Shown here: positions 7,594 through 51,277 of the stretch, piece after piece
How the letters are laid out: each line of letters begins with the position of its first letter
Numbering within the stretch: position 1 is the first letter of the stretch
Source: Escherichia phage tonnikala
Length of the DNA: 51,277 nucleotides
Sequence record: NC_049817.1
Strand: one strand, 5' to 3'
Position numbers and translations under genes: made by a program
Notes under the pieces: model-generated
Told to the model about the DNA's origin: nothing
Databases searched by the model: none
The model's input: the letters and a program-made list of their open reading frames with translations, nothing else

Positions 7594-7596
7594 TTG

Positions 7597-7779
7597 TTAT
7601 TCGATACGCTTTACAGTAACCAACAAAACGCCGTCTTCATCACACAAATTATGCTCTGATATATCAAACGCTCGCATGTCAGAATGAATGAGCGTTAACA
7701 TTGCGTGCATGAAGTCGTCATGTGAGATTTGAGAAGTGGCGCAAAATTTAAGAATTTCATCTATCAGTTTACTTTCCAT
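7597..7779 (-). CDS. hypothetical small protein
   Basis: Minus ORF; start trimmed to internal ATG (MESKL...) to reduce overlap with HNH gene; no good RBS seen. Confidence 0.3.
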   Translation of the reverse strand: MESKLIDEILKFCATSQISHDDFMHAMLTLIHSDMRAFDISEHNLCDEDGVLLVTVKRIE

Positions 7780-8242
7780 GATTTTTGTGGTAGCCAAATT
7801 TAACCTCCGCCTGTTCCCTTGCCTTAATTGCATCATCAAGACTTAAAAAATATCCTAAATGCACGCTCTTACCGTTATCATATATAGTTGCGTGCCATCT
7901 TTTGTTTTTCTTATTCCAGCAAACACCAACTCGACCAGAGTTATTTCTTTTTAGTAGAGATACGTTTTTGCTGTTATCTAATCTTGATGCAAGCCTTAGA
8001 TTTTCAATTCTGTTATCGCTCCTATTGTGCCATATATGGTCTATTTCCATTCCTTCTGGTATTTTTCCATTGTGCATTTCCCATATTATCCTATGCGCCA
8101 AAAACAATACACCATTATACCTTATTCTCACATATCCATTTTCACATACACATCCCGCAACGCTTCCAGGCTTTGCTTTCCCTCTTCTGTTTCTCCATCT
8201 CAATATTCCATTGTCATATATAAATACTTCATTCCAATCCAT
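7769..8242 (-). CDS. HNH homing endonuclease with AP2-like DNA-binding domain
   Basis: 157 aa; HNH core EIDHIWHNRSDNRIENLR; C-terminal AP2-like segment; gene lies in a visibly AT-rich stretch. Confidence 0.75.
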   Translation of the reverse strand: MDWNEVFIYDNGILRWRNRRGKAKPGSVAGCVCENGYVRIRYNGVLFLAHRIIWEMHNGKIPEGMEIDHIWHNRSDNRIENLRLASRLDNSKNVSLLKRNNSGRVGVCWNKKNKRWHATIYDNGKSVHLGYFLSLDDAIKAREQAEVKFGYHKNHGK

Positions 8243-8624
8243 ATCTTTTCCTTAGAGCTTTTATTTGTTGTCTATTAGCTTTTGCCTGGAACAATTCATC
8301 ATCGCCCATCTCCCCTATTCTCGCCATATCCCTGATCCAGTCGTTGCGCATACCATCCAGGCTATACAATTCGAATCCGAAAGGCCGCTTTGACGATCCT
8401 TTGGACCAGTATTTTCCGCAGACCCCATCTATATAACCAGCCGTCATCATTCTTGCGCAAAATTCCTTAGATGCAAGGCTGGCGAACATTCGCGGCGTAA
8501 GTCCGGCGGCCCGCGCGAGCCGCTCGCATTCTCTATGCTGATAGATAAATTTGGCTATGTGCTGCCTGTTAAACCAGTCGTATGACTCACACCATTTATA
8601 CAGATCAAGCAAAAACATAATCAT
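8229..8624 (-). CDS. hypothetical protein
   Basis: 131 aa; start overlaps upstream gene stop (ATGA). Confidence 0.5.
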   Translation of the reverse strand: MIMFLLDLYKWCESYDWFNRQHIAKFIYQHRECERLARAAGLTPRMFASLASKEFCARMMTAGYIDGVCGKYWSKGSSKRPFGFELYSLDGMRNDWIRDMARIGEMGDDELFQAKANRQQIKALRKRYGLE

Positions 8625-45735: not shown

Positions 45736-46791
45736 ATGAGTGATTTTAACGCCTACACTAGCGAAGAAATGAGCAATGAGCTTTATCATGATCCTAACGC
45801 GTGGACGGCTGAATACGTCAGCGGTTCCAGCTTGGCGGAGATTTACAGCACTTGCCCGGCGTACTGGAAGTACAAGCCTCGCCAGGAAACTAAGGCACTT
45901 GTTTTCGGTACGCAGTCGCATACCAATTTTGAAAGCAAGGAGTTATTCGAAAAAACATATCGCCGCGCACCGTCGCAGGATGATTTTAAAGATCTGATCA
46001 CAAGTCAAACGGCGTTAGCCTCAAAGCTGAAATCTTTTGGCCTGAAAGGTACAACGGGTAAGCAATACCCAGAATTGCTGGAAATGCTGTACAAGTGCGG
46101 TGAGGATCTCAATGTATGGTGGCTTATCGAAATGATGGCAGAATGCCAGGCCGCAGCGGACGGCGTGCAGTTAATCGACGCGAAAGATTATGATGCCTGT
46201 GTAGCGATGCGGCGCGTACTTGAGGCAATACCTGAGCATAATGCTTGCATGAATAGCCCAACCGCGCAGCGTGAAATGTCAATATTCGGGATCATCAATG
46301 GCGTAAAAGTTAAAGTGCGCCTTGATCACGTTGACGTAAACAAGGATGTAAAGGCCACAATCATTAACGGTTACGACGAAAAAGGCCGACCGATTTATGA
46401 AGAAGTCATCTATCCAGAAGCTGTGATTATCACTGACTATAAAACAACGGTTAGCGCAAATCCGGTTGACTTCCAGCGCCTGGCTTACAATCACGGCTAT
46501 TATCTCAAAATGGCTTTGCAGCATGATTTATTTAAAAAGGCGTATCCAGACGAGGAAAGGCCAGTAATTGTGAGATTGCTTGCTCAAGAGAAGAAAGAGC
46601 CTTACTTGCCGCTCGCATTCCGCATGAACATTGAGCAATTGAAGATCGGGCGTATCCAGTACATGAGCGTGATCAACAAGTTCAACGTTTGCCAACAGTT
46701 AGATGAATGGCCTTCGTATGCAAACGGGCAGCCAGAAATTGATCTTGATACTCCTGATTGGGTGCGCGCTCAATTCAGGCAGTATCTATGA
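45736..46791 (+). CDS. PD-(D/E)XK-family exonuclease (RecE/exonuclease VIII-like)
   Basis: 351 aa; D...E-x-K style core (VIITDYKTT); encoded just upstream of Erf and SSB. Confidence 0.5.
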   Translation: MSDFNAYTSEEMSNELYHDPNAWTAEYVSGSSLAEIYSTCPAYWKYKPRQETKALVFGTQSHTNFESKELFEKTYRRAPSQDDFKDLITSQTALASKLKSFGLKGTTGKQYPELLEMLYKCGEDLNVWWLIEMMAECQAAADGVQLIDAKDYDACVAMRRVLEAIPEHNACMNSPTAQREMSIFGIINGVKVKVRLDHVDVNKDVKATIINGYDEKGRPIYEEVIYPEAVIITDYKTTVSANPVDFQRLAYNHGYYLKMALQHDLFKKAYPDEERPVIVRLLAQEKKEPYLPLAFRMNIEQLKIGRIQYMSVINKFNVCQQLDEWPSYANGQPEIDLDTPDWVRAQFRQYL

Positions 46792-46866: not shown

Positions 46867-47124
46867 ATGACAGATAAAGACAATGCCACATTATTGCATT
46901 TAGAGCGATTCATTGATCGAGTAACCATTGCAATGAAAGAATTTATTAAGCCGATGAACATTAAAGAGTCGGAAGAAATGAAGACTTACATCAAGGACGT
47001 GGTTGCATCCATTGACAACGTTATCCTTGTTGCAACGATGAGCAAGGGAAACAAAGAGCGCGAGAGATTGGTTGCTGAATCAACAGAAGAATTTATTAAA
47101 ATGCTTGAAAGCGAGAAGGAATAA
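46867..47124 (+). CDS. hypothetical protein
   Basis: 85 aa between exonuclease and Erf. Confidence 0.45.
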   Translation: MTDKDNATLLHLERFIDRVTIAMKEFIKPMNIKESEEMKTYIKDVVASIDNVILVATMSKGNKERERLVAESTEEFIKMLESEKE

Positions 47125-47781
<657 letters not shown>

Positions 47782-47786
47782 TAAAC

Positions 47787-47806
47787 GGGGCGCTTGCGCC
47801 CCTTTT
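47787..47806 (+). terminator. terminator-like hairpin
   Basis: GGGGCG-CTTG-CGCCCC then TTTTGTCA. Confidence 0.4.
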
Positions 47807-47824
47807 GTCATAGGAGAAAACAAA

Positions 47825-48271
47825 ATGCACGTTATTACAGGTGAGATCCGAAAAGAGCCAAAAGTAAAGCAAATGCCTAACGGTAGCACGCTATATGTTG
47901 TTGAGCTTTCCGAACGATATAAAGACCGTGAAGGCAATTGGCAGTATACAAACTATGTATTTTTCTTTAACGCGAAAACAGACGGCCTGAATGGTTGGTA
48001 TGCTGAGGCGTTCCAGGTAGGCAAGGTTATTTCTGTTTCCTGCGATACCTTGCGAGTTGAAACGCGAGAATACAACGGAAAGATTTACAGCACCGTGCAG
48101 CCTGGCGGATTTGCAAACTTGCTATTTAGCCAGCGTGGGGAAAGCCAGCAACAATATCAGCAGCGCACTCAAGGTGGATGGGGGCAACCACAACAGCAAC
48201 AAATCCCTCAACAGCAACCACAGCAAAGCAATCAGCCGCCGATTGACTTTGATGACGATATACCTTTCTGA
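47825..48271 (+). CDS. ssb: single-stranded DNA-binding protein
   Basis: OB-fold-like N-terminus, Gln/Pro-rich linker and acidic tip DFDDDIPF; AGGAG RBS before ATG at 47825. Confidence 0.8.
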   Translation: MHVITGEIRKEPKVKQMPNGSTLYVVELSERYKDREGNWQYTNYVFFFNAKTDGLNGWYAEAFQVGKVISVSCDTLRVETREYNGKIYSTVQPGGFANLLFSQRGESQQQYQQRTQGGWGQPQQQQIPQQQPQQSNQPPIDFDDDIPF

Positions 48272-48276
48272 TAAAA

Positions 48277-48296
48277 AGCCCCGCACATGCGGGGCT
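48277..48296. terminator. bidirectional rho-independent terminator
   Basis: AGCCCCGC-ACAT-GCGGGGCT flanked by A-run and TTTTTTTT; between converging ssb and tail fibre genes. Confidence 0.6.
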
Positions 48297-48301
48297 TTTT
48301 T

Positions 48302-50782
48302 TTAGTCTGTATCTGTTGGATTGTTGATTAATTTCGCTACCGCTTTTCTTAGATCATCTATCTCTTTCTCCATTTTCTCAATTTTCCCCCCCATGTAGAC
48401 CATAGCGCAAGCCATATCTGTTAGCATAACATTGCTATCTAGCGCCAATGTGTCATCATTTCTGTCAGTTTCAATCTGACGATCAATGTATTCCTCACCA
48501 TTTTCATCAACTCCAATCACATCCTCAAATACCGGCGAGCCTGGAACTAGCTTTACATATTGTGGATCGATTTTTAACAGATCTTGAGCTATCAGGCCAA
48601 AACGTTGAACATCAGATCCGTTATATTTAAACATAGCAGGCAACCATTGCATTACGCGATCGTAGCTTTCCTTTCCGTCTGTGTATTTAATGTCGTGTTT
48701 CAAATCACGATCGGACGTTGGGTTTTTTGCGAAAATAAAAGAACCTCCGCCGAAACCTTGCTCCCATGTAGTAATGTCACCAGCATATGTAAAATGATAA
48801 GCACGATGAAAACGACCATCACCATTTAACTTTAGCGCTACATCAGGCCACGCGGCATTTCCTTTTGATACAACACCAAGCCCAACTCGCATATGATAAC
48901 CGCCAGTTGATAAAGAGCCACCAGAAACAACAGGACTCCAACCAGAGTCATTGTTTGTAACTGAGTTTGCGTAGTATGGCGCCCCCATGTGATCCCATTC
49001 AAGACCCCATGCGCCTTGTACACACTGACCATTAAAACCACGCTGCGCAGTCATGTATCCACCGTAATCATTGTGGAATCTAAACTCTTTGACGTCAGAT
49101 CCTTGATTATTAACCAATACTTTTACATGGGCTATATCAGTAGAGCCGCCTCTTACAGCGCCAAATTGCCAGAATCCACCGTACCAGTTGCCTTGTAGCA
49201 AGTTTACCCATCCATAAGCTCCACCATCTCCTGATGCGTTTGTCAGGTAAATATCTTTATCACCTCCTTCGGCAGTTCCGCAGCCAACTCGCATTGCCTG
49301 TTTTGCAGTAATCCACCCGTTAGAGTAAAGCCCACCAGTTCCATTGATTTCAACATGATGTAGACCTGATAACTTTGAGTTTTCATCAAATTGCAGGTAT
49401 CCGTGCTTGTCTCCTTCATTGTTTGCTGTATGTATTGTTGTTTTCCATAATCCGCCTTGCTTTTCAGCGTATACCCGAGAATAACCCCGAGAAACACCAT
49501 CATCACCCTTTGCGTGTAAATTCAAGATTCCACTAAGCTCAGCAGCTCCAGCATATTGATGAACAAGATCTAGATCGGAAAATCTTGGTGTTTGTCTCTC
49601 ACCCAATCCAAGACCATCCCTAAACAAAAGAATATCGCGGATAACATAATCATTAATCGCATAGAATCCTGTGTTAGTTAAAACCATTGCCCTTACTTCT
49701 GTACATTCAGCGGCAGGATCTGTCGCACCAAACTTAAAAACTGTTGCGTTTTCAACAAAACCATCTGGCGCATAATCTGATGTTGGGACAACAACATCAA
49801 TATTGCTTTCACAGTGAATGCTAACAGGAAATGCGCCGCCTCGAATGTAAACTGCAAACGCCTTTTGTGTTGCTTTCGCTGGCATCAAAATAGAATCAAT
49901 AGTTCTTTCATCTTTCTGATAGATGGTGAAATTACCATAAACGCTATCAACGCCGTCAGACCATCCAGAAGTACGAGCATAGCCAGCAAATGACGCTGAA
50001 TTATAAGGATAATCACCAGTCCTATTACTAGTTGAGATCTGGAAGAAAACGCCTAATTGACTCATATCACCAACGTTCTTTTCTTGGAAGATCACAGGGT
50101 AATATTTTGCATCTTCCGCACCCGCTGGAGCGTTTACAGTTCTTTCGTATTTCCAGCCCTGATAACCTACAACTGCTTGATGCGCTCTATCAGCTTCCAT
50201 TTCGGCGCGGTTTGCTTGCTGCAATGCGTTGGCTGAATGGTTAGCAGCCTGATCTCGCGCCGAGTTAATTTCCGCTACCGCTGAATCTTTGATCTGTTGC
50301 GTTTGTTGCATGTAGCCTTTTGCTGATTCAGCATGATTAAAAGATTGACCAGCCCATGTTTGCGCGTTTTGTTCGCTTTGTGCTGCTGATGCCGCATTTC
50401 TCACTGTTTCATCACGTAAGTCAATCAGCTTTTGCAGATCAAAGTTCCTGAAAAATTCAATTGCTTCCTCTATCTGCGTTTCCTTGCTTTGATAGTAGCG
50501 CAGCGTTTCAGCTACATCTTGCGCCAGACCGTCAACAGTGATCGAGTCATGCAGTAAAATGATGTAATTGCTTCGCGCAATTTCAGATCCGCCAGTTGTG
50601 ATGGCGCGGATTTGCGTATCACTAATAACCTCACTGATTACCGCCGCCTGAAAAGGGGCGTCAATAAAAAATATTGTCGCACCTGGGCGAATCAAGGTTA
50701 ATTGCTCACGCCATTTTGTGTCGTAACCAGTTACATAACCTTGCGCGTCCATAGACGCTTGGCCTTGTCTGTAAATTGCCAT
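48302..50782 (-). CDS. tail fibre protein with C-terminal intramolecular chaperone (peptidase S74) domain
   Basis: 827 aa from ATG with AGGAGG RBS; C-terminal segment (DRDLKHDIKYTDG...RFGLIAQDL...) typical of S74 auto-cleaving chaperone domains. Confidence 0.7.
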   Translation of the reverse strand: MAIYRQGQASMDAQGYVTGYDTKWREQLTLIRPGATIFFIDAPFQAAVISEVISDTQIRAITTGGSEIARSNYIILLHDSITVDGLAQDVAETLRYYQSKETQIEEAIEFFRNFDLQKLIDLRDETVRNAASAAQSEQNAQTWAGQSFNHAESAKGYMQQTQQIKDSAVAEINSARDQAANHSANALQQANRAEMEADRAHQAVVGYQGWKYERTVNAPAGAEDAKYYPVIFQEKNVGDMSQLGVFFQISTSNRTGDYPYNSASFAGYARTSGWSDGVDSVYGNFTIYQKDERTIDSILMPAKATQKAFAVYIRGGAFPVSIHCESNIDVVVPTSDYAPDGFVENATVFKFGATDPAAECTEVRAMVLTNTGFYAINDYVIRDILLFRDGLGLGERQTPRFSDLDLVHQYAGAAELSGILNLHAKGDDGVSRGYSRVYAEKQGGLWKTTIHTANNEGDKHGYLQFDENSKLSGLHHVEINGTGGLYSNGWITAKQAMRVGCGTAEGGDKDIYLTNASGDGGAYGWVNLLQGNWYGGFWQFGAVRGGSTDIAHVKVLVNNQGSDVKEFRFHNDYGGYMTAQRGFNGQCVQGAWGLEWDHMGAPYYANSVTNNDSGWSPVVSGGSLSTGGYHMRVGLGVVSKGNAAWPDVALKLNGDGRFHRAYHFTYAGDITTWEQGFGGGSFIFAKNPTSDRDLKHDIKYTDGKESYDRVMQWLPAMFKYNGSDVQRFGLIAQDLLKIDPQYVKLVPGSPVFEDVIGVDENGEEYIDRQIETDRNDDTLALDSNVMLTDMACAMVYMGGKIEKMEKEIDDLRKAVAKLINNPTDTD

Positions 50783-50800
50783 TTGTAAAATCCTCCTAAA

Positions 50801-50819
50801 TAGCACTTTTTGCTAATGA
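50801..50819 (+). promoter_or_regulatory. conserved motif copy (variant) abutting RBS of the leftward tail fibre gene
   Basis: TAGCACTTTTTGCTAATGAC on + strand, immediately 5' (in gene sense) of the tail fibre RBS. Confidence 0.4.
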
Positions 50820-50888: not shown

Positions 50889-51277
50889 TTATAGCAGTGA
50901 TTCGGGCTTGTAGAGTTTTCTTTCTACGCCCTGTTTAAAATTATCGTTAACAGGCATCATTATGTCAAGACCTCTTTCCTCTGCCGCGATTATCACATCA
51001 CGATCATCCTTCCGGCAGACTACGCGCATTCTTCTTTCTCCTTTATATCTATGCGCAACCATTTCAAGATTTGAAGGAGTAAAGCAAGCCCACACCTCTT
51101 GACCAGTTGATAAATGAACATGCTGGGAATCAACCCAATCAAGGCACAAATAGATCGTCTTATCCGTGCTACCTGTTTTAACAACAGATCCGCGCGTGTA
51201 GTCGCGAGCTAAAAACCAATCCTTTCCATCCTCATCAATGAAAAGCACGTTACACATTTCATCATCCACCAGGTGAC
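50889..51277 (-). CDS. hypothetical protein (5' end may lie beyond window)
   Basis: Open minus frame to window edge; track start at 51269 is GTG; internal ATG at 51255-51257. Confidence 0.4.
   Translation of the reverse strand, partial: HLVDDEMCNVLFIDEDGKDWFLARDYTRGSVVKTGSTDKTIYLCLDWVDSQHVHLSTGQEVWACFTPSNLEMVAHRYKGERRMRVVCRKDDRDVIIAAEERGLDIMMPVNDNFKQGVERKLYKPESLL

What the first reader, a model, noticed from the sequence alone, without database searches (positions are those of the whole stretch)
47825..48271. Phage SSB ends in DFDDDIPF, matching the host-type SSB tip
The last residues follow a Gln/Pro-rich low-complexity linker and match the acidic tip that bacterial SSB uses to recruit partner proteins. 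The phage SSB may therefore hijack or compete for host SSB-interacting proteins.
Basis: partly seen in the sequence, partly recalled or inferred. Interest (0 to 1): 0.35.

Follow-up and report, generated by a model that had tools for sequence, protein, structure and literature searches.

The report
T1-like phage SSB with host-type tail

Summary
The ORF at 47825-48271 (+) encodes 148 aa ending ...SNQPPIDFDDDIPF*. The last 8 residues are identical to those of E. coli K-12 SSB.

The window is a T1-like phage, about 95-99.9% identical to Escherichia phage FritzSarasin/Bas04 (Drexlerviridae), where this gene is already annotated as SSB.

The protein has three parts:
- **OB fold (aa 1-105):** confidently predicted. 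It matches bacterial SSBs by structure only (14-22% identity) and falls below the Pfam SSB threshold.
- **Linker (aa 106-139):** disordered and 50% Gln. It contains QGGWGQPQQ, which is also present in E. coli SSB.
- **Acidic tip (aa 140-148).**

The tip is the most conserved part of the protein. 113 of 120 related clusters keep it, while linker length varies from 24 to 41 residues. DNA comparison gives no sign of recent capture from the host ssb gene.

The gene closes a conserved exonuclease-Erf-SSB module. The phage has a primase and helicases but no DNA polymerase.

Best reading (inferred, not shown): the tip lets phage-SSB-coated ssDNA recruit host SSB partners, such as Pol III chi, and probably the phage's own Erf annealase. 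"Hijack or compete" is plausible and has published precedents (SPP1 G36P, HK620 SSB, Bas52_0087), but it is untested here.

Novelty and interest are low.

The parts
47825..48271 (+). ssb gene of the phage (148 codons plus TGA stop; TAA follows directly)
   Evidence: Translation. phrog_44 'single strand DNA binding protein' at 3.2e-26. Equals CDS bas04_0029 of phage FritzSarasin at 99.9% nt identity.
47825..48139 (+). N-terminal OB-fold ssDNA-binding core (aa 1-105), strongly diverged from canonical bacterial SSB
   Evidence: AlphaFold2 gives pLDDT above 90 over aa 1-106 with a beta-barrel plus one helix. The top 50 Foldseek PDB hits are almost all bacterial-type SSBs (plus P. falciparum SSB and two E. 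coli PriB chains): probability 1.0, E 8e-6 to 5e-4, 13-22% identity. Pfam PF00436 scores only 17.1 bits against a cut-off of 26. phmmer with the core alone finds only 40 clusters among 1.84 billion representatives, and the 30 of those 40 that were fetched and read include no canonical single-domain bacterial SSB.
48140..48241 (+). Intrinsically disordered Gln/Pro-rich linker (aa 106-139)
   Evidence: pLDDT is below 50 from residue 107. Composition is 17 Q and 5 P of 34 residues. Across relatives the length varies from 24 to 41 residues and the mean entropy is 1.31 bits.
48170..48196 (+). Linker motif QGGWGQPQQ (aa 116-124), identical to E. coli SSB aa 133-141
   Evidence: Alignments. Only 2 of 9 codons are identical to E. 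coli ssb. The motif is present in 33 of 120 close and 6 of 39 distant family clusters.
48242..48268 (+). Acidic C-terminal tip IDFDDDIPF (aa 140-148); the last 8 residues equal the host SSB-Ct
   Evidence: D143, D145, I146, P147 and F148 are invariant in 115 full-length relatives, and the mean top-residue frequency is 0.95 against 0.83 for the core. The motif is unique in the window, with 0 of 100 shuffles matching.
47812..47816 (+). Shine-Dalgarno AGGAG, 8 nt upstream of the ATG
   Evidence: Read directly from the sequence.
47787..47802 (+). GC-rich hairpin GGGGCGCTTGCGCCCC followed by TTTT, between erf and ssb (terminator-like, or a 5' leader hairpin)
   Evidence: Terminator scan. A promoter-like TTGACA-18-TAAAAT (11 of 12 matches) lies just upstream at 47726-47755.
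48273..48300 (.). Strong hairpin plus T-run directly after ssb, between the convergent ssb and lateral tail fibre genes
   Evidence: 12-bp stem with 7 GC pairs, followed by a T-run. The tail-fibre ORF at 48302-50806 lies on the minus strand.
47128..47781 (+). Erf-family single-strand annealing protein gene, directly upstream; a candidate phage partner of the tip
   Evidence: PF04404 ERF at 7e-20. phrog_155 at 2.6e-44.
45736..46791 (+). Exonuclease VIII / PD-(D/E)XK (DUF3799) gene, first gene of the exo-erf-ssb recombination module
   Evidence: PF12684 at 3.9e-13. phrog_412 at 2.5e-96. The same gene order is found in Webervirus, Rogunavirus, a Serratia phage and metagenomic contigs.

Best explanation
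The gene encodes the SSB of a T1-like (Drexlerviridae, Warwickvirus) coliphage. It has three parts: a highly diverged OB-fold core that binds phage ssDNA, a disordered Q/P-rich linker, and a terminal peptide DFDDDIPF identical to that of the host SSB.

Proposed mechanism. Phage SSB coats the ssDNA made during phage replication and exo/Erf-driven recombination. The free C-terminal Phe and the preceding acidic residues dock into the same pockets of the SSB-interacting proteins that normally read the host SSB-Ct. The phage supplies a primase and helicases but no DNA polymerase, clamp or clamp loader. The most important client is therefore probably the host Pol III holoenzyme, through chi. The phage's own Erf annealase, encoded immediately upstream, is a likely second client.

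What is shown: the sequence identity of the tip, the OB fold, the disorder of the linker, strong purifying selection on the tip, the conserved synteny, and the absence of a polymerase gene.

What is inferred: ssDNA binding, every protein-protein contact, and whether the net effect on host processes is recruitment or competition.
For: - **Tip identity:** the tip is identical to host SSB over 8 residues and unique in the window.
- **Conservation:** the tip is the best conserved segment. 113 of 120 related clusters end in [MI]DFD[DSE]DIPF-type tips. DxDIPF is invariant in 115 full-length relatives, while the linker varies in length and sequence.
- **Distant relatives:** an xDIPF/DDIPF ending persists in relatives at 35-55% core identity and in Webervirus, Rogunavirus, Serratia-phage and Vibrio-phage proteins.
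- **Structure:** OB fold with pLDDT above 90 and a disordered tail. The best structural matches are bacterial-type SSBs.
- **No polymerase:** the FritzSarasin annotation lists a primase, two helicases, Dam, Dcm, exoVIII, Erf and SSB, but no polymerase. Pfam confirms a primase Zn-ribbon, an SF2 helicase and DUF3987, and finds nothing in the two largest unknown ORFs.
- **Synteny:** exo-erf-ssb order is conserved.
- **Precedents:**
  - The SSB-Ct recruits at least 17 E. coli proteins (PMC7145534).
  - Pol III chi and DnaG bind the SSB-Ct (PMC3045619, PMC3632105).
  - The SPP1 rolling-circle reaction needs an SSB with its C-terminal tail, and the phage SSB G36P has a host-like C-terminus (PMC3561973).
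  - The last 6 residues of HK620 SSB are needed to stimulate its annealase (PMC5928155).
  - Red-beta binds the WMDFDDDIPF peptide (PMC6393309).
  - SSAP activity depends on the SSB C-tail, and phage SSBs often sit in SSAP operons (PMC12054835).
Against: - No binding or genetic data exist for any T1-type SSB in the literature searched.
- The host SSB is present during infection and could serve Pol III on its own, so a phage SSB tip is not logically required for replication.
- Some relatives carry about 15 extra residues after the tip. These would bury the terminal carboxylate that host partners need, so an exposed host-type tip is not obligatory in this family.
- The oligomeric state is unknown.
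- The absence of a polymerase rests on annotation and Pfam, not on an exhaustive fold search of every ORF.
Confidence: 0.6

Rival explanations
1. The tip's main client is phage-encoded. It recruits the Erf annealase (and perhaps exoVIII, the primase or the helicases) onto SSB-coated ssDNA for recombination-dependent replication. It looks like the host tip only because Erf must also work on host-SSB-coated DNA, so one Erf pocket reads both tails.
For: - ssb is the last gene of a conserved exo-erf-ssb module.
- The HK620 SSB tail is required for Sak4 binding and annealing (PMC5928155).
- The Red-beta C-terminal domain binds the SSB-Ct with a Kd of about 11 uM (PMC6393309).
- SSAPs are specific for the SSB C-tail, and SSBs are frequent in SSAP operons (PMC12054835, PMC13490951).
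Against: - A single phage partner could co-evolve with a drifting tip, as in HK620 (NDYPPF) or T7 gp2.5. Here all 8 residues are held at the host sequence.
- Vibrio phage K137 keeps a DEDIPF tip although no Erf gene lies within the 3-kb flanks examined on either side.
- This reading is not exclusive of the best explanation.
Confidence: 0.25
2. Decoy or takeover, which is the first reader's 'compete' reading. An abundant phage SSB titrates host SSB-interacting proteins (ExoI, RecJ, RecQ, PriA, chi) away from the host chromosome. This would shut down host replication and repair, or protect phage recombination intermediates from host nucleases.
For: - The tip is identical to the host's.
- SPP1 G36P inhibits the host replisome even when host SsbA is saturating (PMC3561973).
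- Bas52_0087, an SSB-like protein with an FDDDIPF motif, is proposed to compete with SbcB/ExoI (bioRxiv 10.64898/2026.04.29.721553).
Against: - Purely inferential here.
- The SPP1 authors concluded that the inhibition probably needs contacts outside the C-terminal motif.
- Competition is an unavoidable side effect of any host-type tip and need not be the selected function.
Confidence: 0.12
3. The host-like tail is a historical remnant of recent capture of the 3' end of the host ssb gene (a chimeric gene), with no selected function of its own in the phage.
For: - The tail is far more host-like than the core: 26 of 43 aligned tail residues are identical, against 14-22% identity in the core.
- The family profile hits only full-length Ec/Kp SSB chains in the PDB.
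- The last 39-43 nt are 87-92% identical to E. coli ssb, with 7-9 of 11 synonymous sites shared.
Against: - Outside those 39-43 nt, the only DNA-level match to E. coli genomes at E of 10 or less is one weak hit (72% identity, E = 6) to a prophage ssb; nothing else in the linker aligns to the chromosomal ssb.
- The shared QGGWGQPQQ motif uses different codons at 7 of 9 positions.
- The tip is retained across relatives whose cores are only 35-55% identical, and it is the most conserved segment. That indicates long-term purifying selection.
Confidence: 0.03

Closest known systems
E. coli / Klebsiella chromosomal SSB (Pfam PF00436; PDB 1eqq, 7f2n)
   Same: Same three-part architecture of OB core, disordered Gly/Gln/Pro linker and acidic tip. 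The last 8 residues, DFDDDIPF, are identical. The linker 9-mer QGGWGQPQQ and the SN(E/Q)PP segment before the tip are shared. The OB fold is of the same type by Foldseek.
   Different: The core is only 14-22% identical and falls below the Pfam gathering score (17.1 against 26 bits). The whole protein is shorter (148 aa against 178 aa in E. coli), and the predicted ordered core ends at about residue 106. His55 of the E. coli tetramer interface falls in a gap in the HMMER alignment. The linker is Gln-dominated rather than Gly-dominated. The oligomeric state is unknown.
Bacillus phage SPP1 G36P SSB
   Same: An SSB encoded by a phage that has its own helicase and loader but uses the host polymerase. 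Its C-terminus is host-like. An SSB with its C-terminal tail is required in the reconstituted phage replication reaction (PMC3561973).
   Different: G36P is 48% identical to the host SsbA throughout (PMC3561973). The T1-type core is unrecognisable to phmmer as a bacterial SSB. The host phylum and tip sequence also differ.
Phage HK620 SSB, partner of the Sak4 annealase
   Same: A distant SSB homologue encoded next to a phage single-strand annealing protein. Its last six residues are needed to recruit and stimulate the annealase (PMC5928155).
   Different: The HK620 tip is NDYPPF, which has diverged from the host's. Its partner is a RecA-like Sak4, not Erf. Relatedness of the two cores was not tested here.
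T7 gp2.5 / T4 gp32 type phage SSBs
   Same: An OB fold plus an acidic C-terminal tail ending in an aromatic residue, used for protein-protein contacts.
   Different: Those tails bind the phage's own polymerase and helicase (as summarised in PMC13402713 and bioRxiv 10.64898/2026.02.22.705581). The fold subtype also differs: no gp2.5 or gp32 structure is among the top 50 Foldseek hits. This phage has no polymerase of its own.
Bas52_0087, an SSB-like trigger of DRT10; rV5 gp209 may be its homologue (not tested)
   Same: A coliphage SSB-like protein with an FDDDIPF-type motif near its C-terminus, for which competition with the host SSB partner SbcB has been proposed (bioRxiv 10.64898/2026.04.29.721553).
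   Different: Bas52_0087 has two OB folds. rV5 gp209 is 423 aa, and in it the motif is internal and followed by a 15-residue extension. The window protein has one OB fold and a truly terminal tip.

Membership tests
Bacterial-type SSB (Pfam PF00436 sequence family) | Score at or above the Pfam gathering threshold (26 bits) | tested here: not met
   17.1 bits, E = 0.0059, over aa 3-73. Only 3 of 33 family members reach E below 0.01.
Bacterial-type SSB (structural and architectural class) | N-terminal OB fold of the SSB type | tested here: met
   AlphaFold2 pLDDT above 90 for aa 1-106. The top Foldseek hits are almost all bacterial-type SSBs, with probability 1.0 and TM about 0.5 normalised to the target.
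Bacterial-type SSB (structural and architectural class) | Intrinsically disordered low-complexity linker after the core | tested here: met
   pLDDT below 50 for residues 107-148. Q+P+G make up 74% of the linker. Linker length varies across relatives.
Bacterial-type SSB (structural and architectural class) | Acidic C-terminal tip ending in Ile-Pro-Phe with a free carboxylate (SSB-Ct, MDFDDDIPF in E. coli) | tested here: met
   The protein ends IDFDDDIPF and is followed immediately by TGA TAA. The last 8 residues are identical to the E. coli ssb product.
Bacterial-type SSB (structural and architectural class) | Homotetramer (or dimer of two-OB chains) presenting four OB folds | not tested
   No multimer prediction was available. 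His55 of the E. coli tetramer interface has no aligned counterpart.
Bacterial-type SSB (structural and architectural class) | Sequence-independent, high-affinity ssDNA binding | not testable with these tools
   Only indirect evidence: Y44 and F48 align with the E. coli base-stacking residues W54 and F60 in the HMMER alignment, and Y41/N43/Y44 are invariant in the family.
PHROG 44 (phage single-strand DNA binding proteins) | Significant full-length match to the family profile | tested here: met
   E = 3.2e-26, 93.7 bits, aa 1-148.
SSB-Ct interaction hub (binds host SSB-interacting proteins) | Physical, tip-dependent binding to chi, ExoI, PriA, RecQ, RecO, DnaG and others | not testable with these tools
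   Only the identity of the motif is shown. Binding is inferred from the E. coli literature (PMC7145534, PMC3045619, PMC3632105).
T7 gp2.5-type phage SSB | gp2.5-like OB fold (PDB 1JE5) | tested here: not met
   No gp2.5 structure appears among the 50 best Foldseek hits, which are almost all bacterial-type SSBs plus two PriB chains.

The most novel reading that the evidence does not exclude
The C-terminal tail of T1-type SSBs (linker motif plus tip) may be an exchangeable cassette kept matched to the enterobacterial host SSB, while the DNA-binding core evolves freely.

On this reading the phage SSB joins or displaces the host SSB hub. It would divert host factors (chi, ExoI, RecJ, RecQ, PriA) to phage DNA and help set sensitivity to SSB-sensing defences. 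The variant tails with a conserved 15-residue cap after IPF would be a regulated or partner-switching form of the same cassette.
Probability: 0.12. Interest if true: 0.5.

Novelty: new member of a known kind. Interest (0 to 1): 0.2.

Why it matters
If the tip works as inferred, T1-like phages rely on a host-compatible SSB tail to couple their own primase/helicase and Erf recombination module to the host polymerase. That would be a simple genetic handle, through tip deletions or swaps, for studying Drexlerviridae replication. It would also matter for building portable exo-Erf-SSB recombineering cassettes. Finally, it could help explain why some SSB-sensing defence systems discriminate phage SSB from host SSB through the core rather than the tail.

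None of this would overturn current views. Phage and plasmid SSBs with host-type acidic tips are well documented, and the gene is already annotated as SSB.

Tried and rejected
1. **Recent capture of the host ssb 3' end.** blastn of window 48120-48275 against 5,426 E. coli genomes aligned only the last 39-43 nt to the chromosomal ssb, at 87-92% identity. The linker gave one weak hit to a prophage ssb (72% identity, E = 6). Codon comparison showed 7-9 of 11 synonymous sites shared in the tip, but only 2 of 9 codons shared in QGGWGQPQQ. I rejected this as a recent event. An old exchange or convergence remains open.

2. **Host-tracking of the tip.** Every identified host of the family is a gammaproteobacterium, whose SSB tips I recall (not checked here) to be DFDDDIPF or very close. 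The test therefore has no power. Only upstream tip positions vary: RFTEEDDIPF in Rogunavirus and MADEDIPF in a Vibrio phage. I did not fetch Vibrio host SSBs, so linker tracking is untested.

3. **Sequence search with the core alone**. I hoped to connect the core to canonical SSBs. It found only 40 clusters, including a spurious 1605-aa tandem-repeat protein (P0121) and an unrelated 812-aa repeat protein (P0151).

4. **Profile search against the PDB**. It hit only full-length Ec/Kp SSB chains, so the signal is driven by the tail. It gives no independent support for core homology. That support comes from the fold only.

5. **Literature on T1/Drexlerviridae SSB**. Nothing specific turned up. The Retron-Eco8 triggers SECphi4/6/18 are gp2.5-like SSBs from polymerase-encoding phages, not this family. 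I therefore dropped the idea that this protein is a known retron trigger.

6. **Modelling a tip-Erf complex.** This was not attempted. The structure tool takes single chains of window sequences only.

Full report
**What is there.** The window carries an ATG at 47825, preceded 8 nt upstream by AGGAG. The frame is open to TGA at 48269-48271, followed directly by TAA. The 148-aa product ends ...GGWGQPQQQQIPQQQPQQSNQPPIDFDDDIPF.

The chromosomal ssb of E. coli K-12 (strain MC1061), fetched here, encodes a protein ending ...SNEPPMDFDDDIPF. The last eight residues are therefore identical, and position -9 is Ile instead of Met. A back-translated DFDDDIPF pattern occurs once in the 51-kb window, even with two mismatches allowed, and never in 100 shuffles. 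Residues 106-139 are 50% Gln and 15% Pro.

**Whose gene it is.** The 2.6 kb around the gene is 99.9% identical to Escherichia phage FritzSarasin (BASEL Bas04; Drexlerviridae, Tempevirinae, Warwickvirus). It is 95-97% identical to many other T1-like coliphages. The whole window is a circular permutation of that genome at 95-99.9% identity, cut inside the primase gene. In FritzSarasin the CDS is already annotated 'single-stranded DNA binding protein'.

The gene is the last of a plus-strand block:
- exonuclease VIII / PD-(D/E)XK at 45736-46791;
- a small 85-aa ORF;
- an Erf-family annealase at 47128-47781;
- then ssb.

A strong hairpin with a T-run follows ssb (48273-48300), and then the convergent lateral tail fibre gene. 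The exo-erf-ssb order recurs in Klebsiella Webervirus, E. coli Rogunavirus, a Serratia phage and metagenomic contigs.

**Anatomy of the protein.** AlphaFold2, run with a 33-sequence family alignment, gives a confident beta-barrel plus one helix for residues 1-106 (pLDDT above 90). It gives no structure for residues 107-148 (pLDDT below 50).

Foldseek against the PDB returns almost only bacterial-type SSBs among the top 50. These include S. coelicolor, P. aeruginosa, E. coli, K. pneumoniae, S. aureus and others, plus P. falciparum SSB and two E. coli PriB chains. Probability is 1.0, E runs from 8e-6 to 5e-4, and sequence identity is 13-22%.

At the sequence level the core is barely recognisable:
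- Pfam SSB scores 17.1 bits against a cut-off of 26.
- Only 3 of 33 family members reach E below 0.01.
- phmmer with the core alone, against 1.84 billion cluster representatives, finds just 40 clusters. The 30 of them that I fetched and read include no canonical single-domain bacterial SSB.
- PHROG 44, the phage SSB family, matches well at 3e-26.

The protein is therefore an SSB by fold and architecture, and a member of a distinct phage lineage. It is not a member of the Pfam sequence family at its curated threshold.

**The tail resembles the host far more than the core does.** phmmer of the full protein against PDB sequences hits K. pneumoniae and E. coli SSB. The alignment is carried by QGGWGQPQQ and SN(Q/E)PP(I/M)DFDDDIPF. 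A family profile hits only those two full-length chains (6.8e-14 and 3.5e-10) and none of the many OB-only SSB chains. In a pairwise alignment, 26 of 43 tail residues are identical to E. coli SSB.

I tested whether this reflects recent capture of host DNA. blastn against 5,426 complete E. coli genomes aligns only the last 39-43 nt to the chromosomal ssb, at 87-92% identity. There, 7-9 of 11 synonymous sites agree, depending on the E. coli allele. The linker DNA gives only one weak hit, to a prophage ssb (72% identity, E = 6). The shared 9-mer QGGWGQPQQ uses different codons at 7 of 9 positions. The resemblance is therefore maintained at the protein level and is not a recent transfer.

The GWGQPQQ motif is patchy in the family, present in 33 of 120 close and 6 of 39 distant clusters. 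I cannot say whether that reflects an unknown linker function or old tail exchange.

**Selection on the tip.** Of 120 related clusters (65-88% identity), 113 end in [MI]DFD[DSE]DIPF-type tips. In 115 full-length relatives, D143, D145, I146, P147 and F148 are invariant. Mean top-residue frequency is 0.95 for the tip, 0.83 for the OB core and 0.66 for the linker. Linker length ranges from 24 to 41 residues.

Relatives at 35-55% core identity still end in xDIPF-type tips:
- from the representative search: HDFDDDIPF, MDFEDDIPF, MDFKDDIPF, GWDDDIPF and MPYDDNIPF;
- in sequenced phages: GMDFDDDIPF in Webervirus, RFTEEDDIPF in Rogunavirus, PPMDFDDDIPF in a Serratia phage, and MADEDIPF in a Vibrio phage.

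A segment that is both disordered and the most conserved part of the protein is the signature of a linear docking motif.

**How it most likely works.** The E. coli SSB-Ct is the docking site for at least 17 genome-maintenance proteins (PMC7145534). These include the chi subunit of Pol III and the DnaG primase (PMC3045619, PMC3632105).

This phage encodes a primase (Zn-ribbon primase-helicase type), an SF2 helicase, a DUF3987 helicase-like protein, Dam, Dcm, exoVIII, Erf and SSB. It encodes no DNA polymerase, clamp or clamp loader. No unassigned ORF is large enough to be one, and the two largest unknown ORFs have no Pfam match. Phage DNA must therefore be copied by the host Pol III holoenzyme. 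That step is an inference from gene content.

If phage SSB coats the template, a host-type tip keeps that nucleoprotein legible to chi and other host factors. The closest experimental analogue is Bacillus phage SPP1. It brings its own helicase, loader and SSB (G36P) but uses the host polymerases. Its reconstituted reaction needs an SSB with its C-terminal tail, and G36P has a host-like C-terminus (PMC3561973).

A second client, not exclusive of the first, is the phage's own Erf:
- the HK620 SSB needs its last six residues to load and stimulate its annealase Sak4 (PMC5928155);
- Red-beta binds the WMDFDDDIPF peptide (PMC6393309);
- annealase activity depends on the SSB C-tail, and phage SSBs are frequent in annealase operons (PMC12054835, PMC13490951).

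The 'compete/hijack' reading also has precedent. G36P blocks the host replisome even with saturating host SSB (PMC3561973). A 2026 preprint proposes that Bas52_0087, an SSB-like protein with an FDDDIPF motif, competes with SbcB/ExoI (10.64898/2026.04.29.721553).

None of these contacts is shown for a T1-type SSB. I found no paper on one. The phage SSBs known to trigger Retron-Eco8, DARNA and similar systems are mostly gp2.5-like, and their activation does not need the C-tail. I therefore make no claim that this protein is a defence trigger.

The tip is certainly a conserved host-type docking motif. Whether its selected role is productive recruitment of host enzymes, recruitment of the phage's Erf, or competition cannot be decided from sequence.

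**Novelty.** The gene is already annotated, and phage SSBs with host-like acidic tips are a known kind with experimental precedents. What is mildly new is the description of the T1-type SSB as a lineage with a very divergent core, below the Pfam threshold, joined to a host-like linker motif and tip. I rate it a new member of a known kind, with interest about 0.2.

**Seen in passing.** Some phage SSBs carry a conserved extension of about 15 residues after the tip, with consensus DIPF-A-[PS]-[VF]-x-L-x-[YF]-x-x-x-x-[IM]-[HY]-x-[LI]. It occurs on:
- T1-type cores (5 of 120 clusters, one of them with 178 member sequences; also a Vibrio phage);
- a canonical-core lambdoid prophage SSB;
- the 423-aa rV5 gp209.

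A tblastn search with tip plus extension finds 150 phage records covering at least 80% of the query. In Sf6 the extension sits instead at the C-terminus of an HNH endonuclease encoded immediately after an SSB that stops at IPF. This looks as if the endonuclease gene lies between the tip and the extension.

Such an extension would bury the terminal Phe carboxylate that the chi subunit of Pol III binds through a salt bridge (PMC3561973). The window's own SSB lacks the extension. It is unexplained, and it is probably more interesting than the finding itself.

Noticed in passing
Not in the window (its SSB stops at 48269). Seen in P0024/P0026/P0031/P0052/P0120, P0138, L012:2501-2983, L002:2625-3131, L011:2054-2587 and L010:316-1587.: A conserved extension of about 15 residues directly after the SSB tip (...DIPFASVGLQYGKHRIYAL...DIPFAPVTLPFPRHTIHAI...DIPFAPVGLQFGKKFMHVI...DIPFAPVGLQYGKSRIHAL). 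It occurs on unrelated SSB cores: T1-type, canonical lambdoid prophage, and the 423-aa rV5 gp209. 150 phage records match tip plus extension. It would mask the terminal Phe carboxylate that host partners need. Its function is unknown.
   Followed up: partly
L009 (Shigella phage Sf6) 583-1056 and 1066-1545: The Sf6 SSB ends ...NFDDSDIPF*. The next gene, an HNH endonuclease, ends ...DEEPVTLPFPRHAIHAI, which is the same extension motif. The endonuclease gene appears to lie between the SSB tip and its extension, or its loss fuses the two.
   Followed up: partly
window 48170-48196: The linker 9-mer QGGWGQPQQ is identical to E. coli and Klebsiella SSB but is encoded with different codons at 7 of 9 positions. 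Its distribution in the phage family is patchy (33 of 120 close and 6 of 39 distant clusters). It may be a functional linker motif or a sign of old tail exchange.
   Followed up: partly
window 47726-47802: A near-consensus promoter-like site, TTGACA-18-TAAAAT (11 of 12 matches), lies inside the 3' end of erf. It is followed by the GC hairpin GGGGCGCTTGCGCCCC plus TTTT, just before the ssb ribosome-binding site. ssb may be transcribed separately or carry a 5' hairpin.
   Followed up: no
window 46867-47124: The 85-aa ORF between the exonuclease and erf matches phrog_11265, whose label is 'tail length tape measure protein'. Several RefSeq phage records carry that name for this gene. The label is implausible for an 85-aa protein inside a recombination module and is probably a propagated misannotation.
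   Followed up: no
window 1-51277, compared with MZ501069.1: The window is a circular permutation of the FritzSarasin genome, cut inside the primase gene. The primase C-terminal part is at 50889-51269 on the minus strand. Identity varies by segment from 95.4% to 99.9%. Window 7596-8267 does not align to FritzSarasin, and there is an indel of about 100 nt in the lateral tail fibre gene near 50245-50260. It is therefore a close relative rather than the same isolate.
   Followed up: no
L005 (Vibrio phage K137) 2995-3483: This T1-type SSB is followed by a gene annotated 'DNA repair exonuclease' (a metallo-dependent phosphatase-like protein in the related Vibrio phage 1.248.O) and an HNH endonuclease. 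No annotated Erf lies within the 3-kb flanks examined. Its tip has drifted to MADEDIPF.
   Followed up: no
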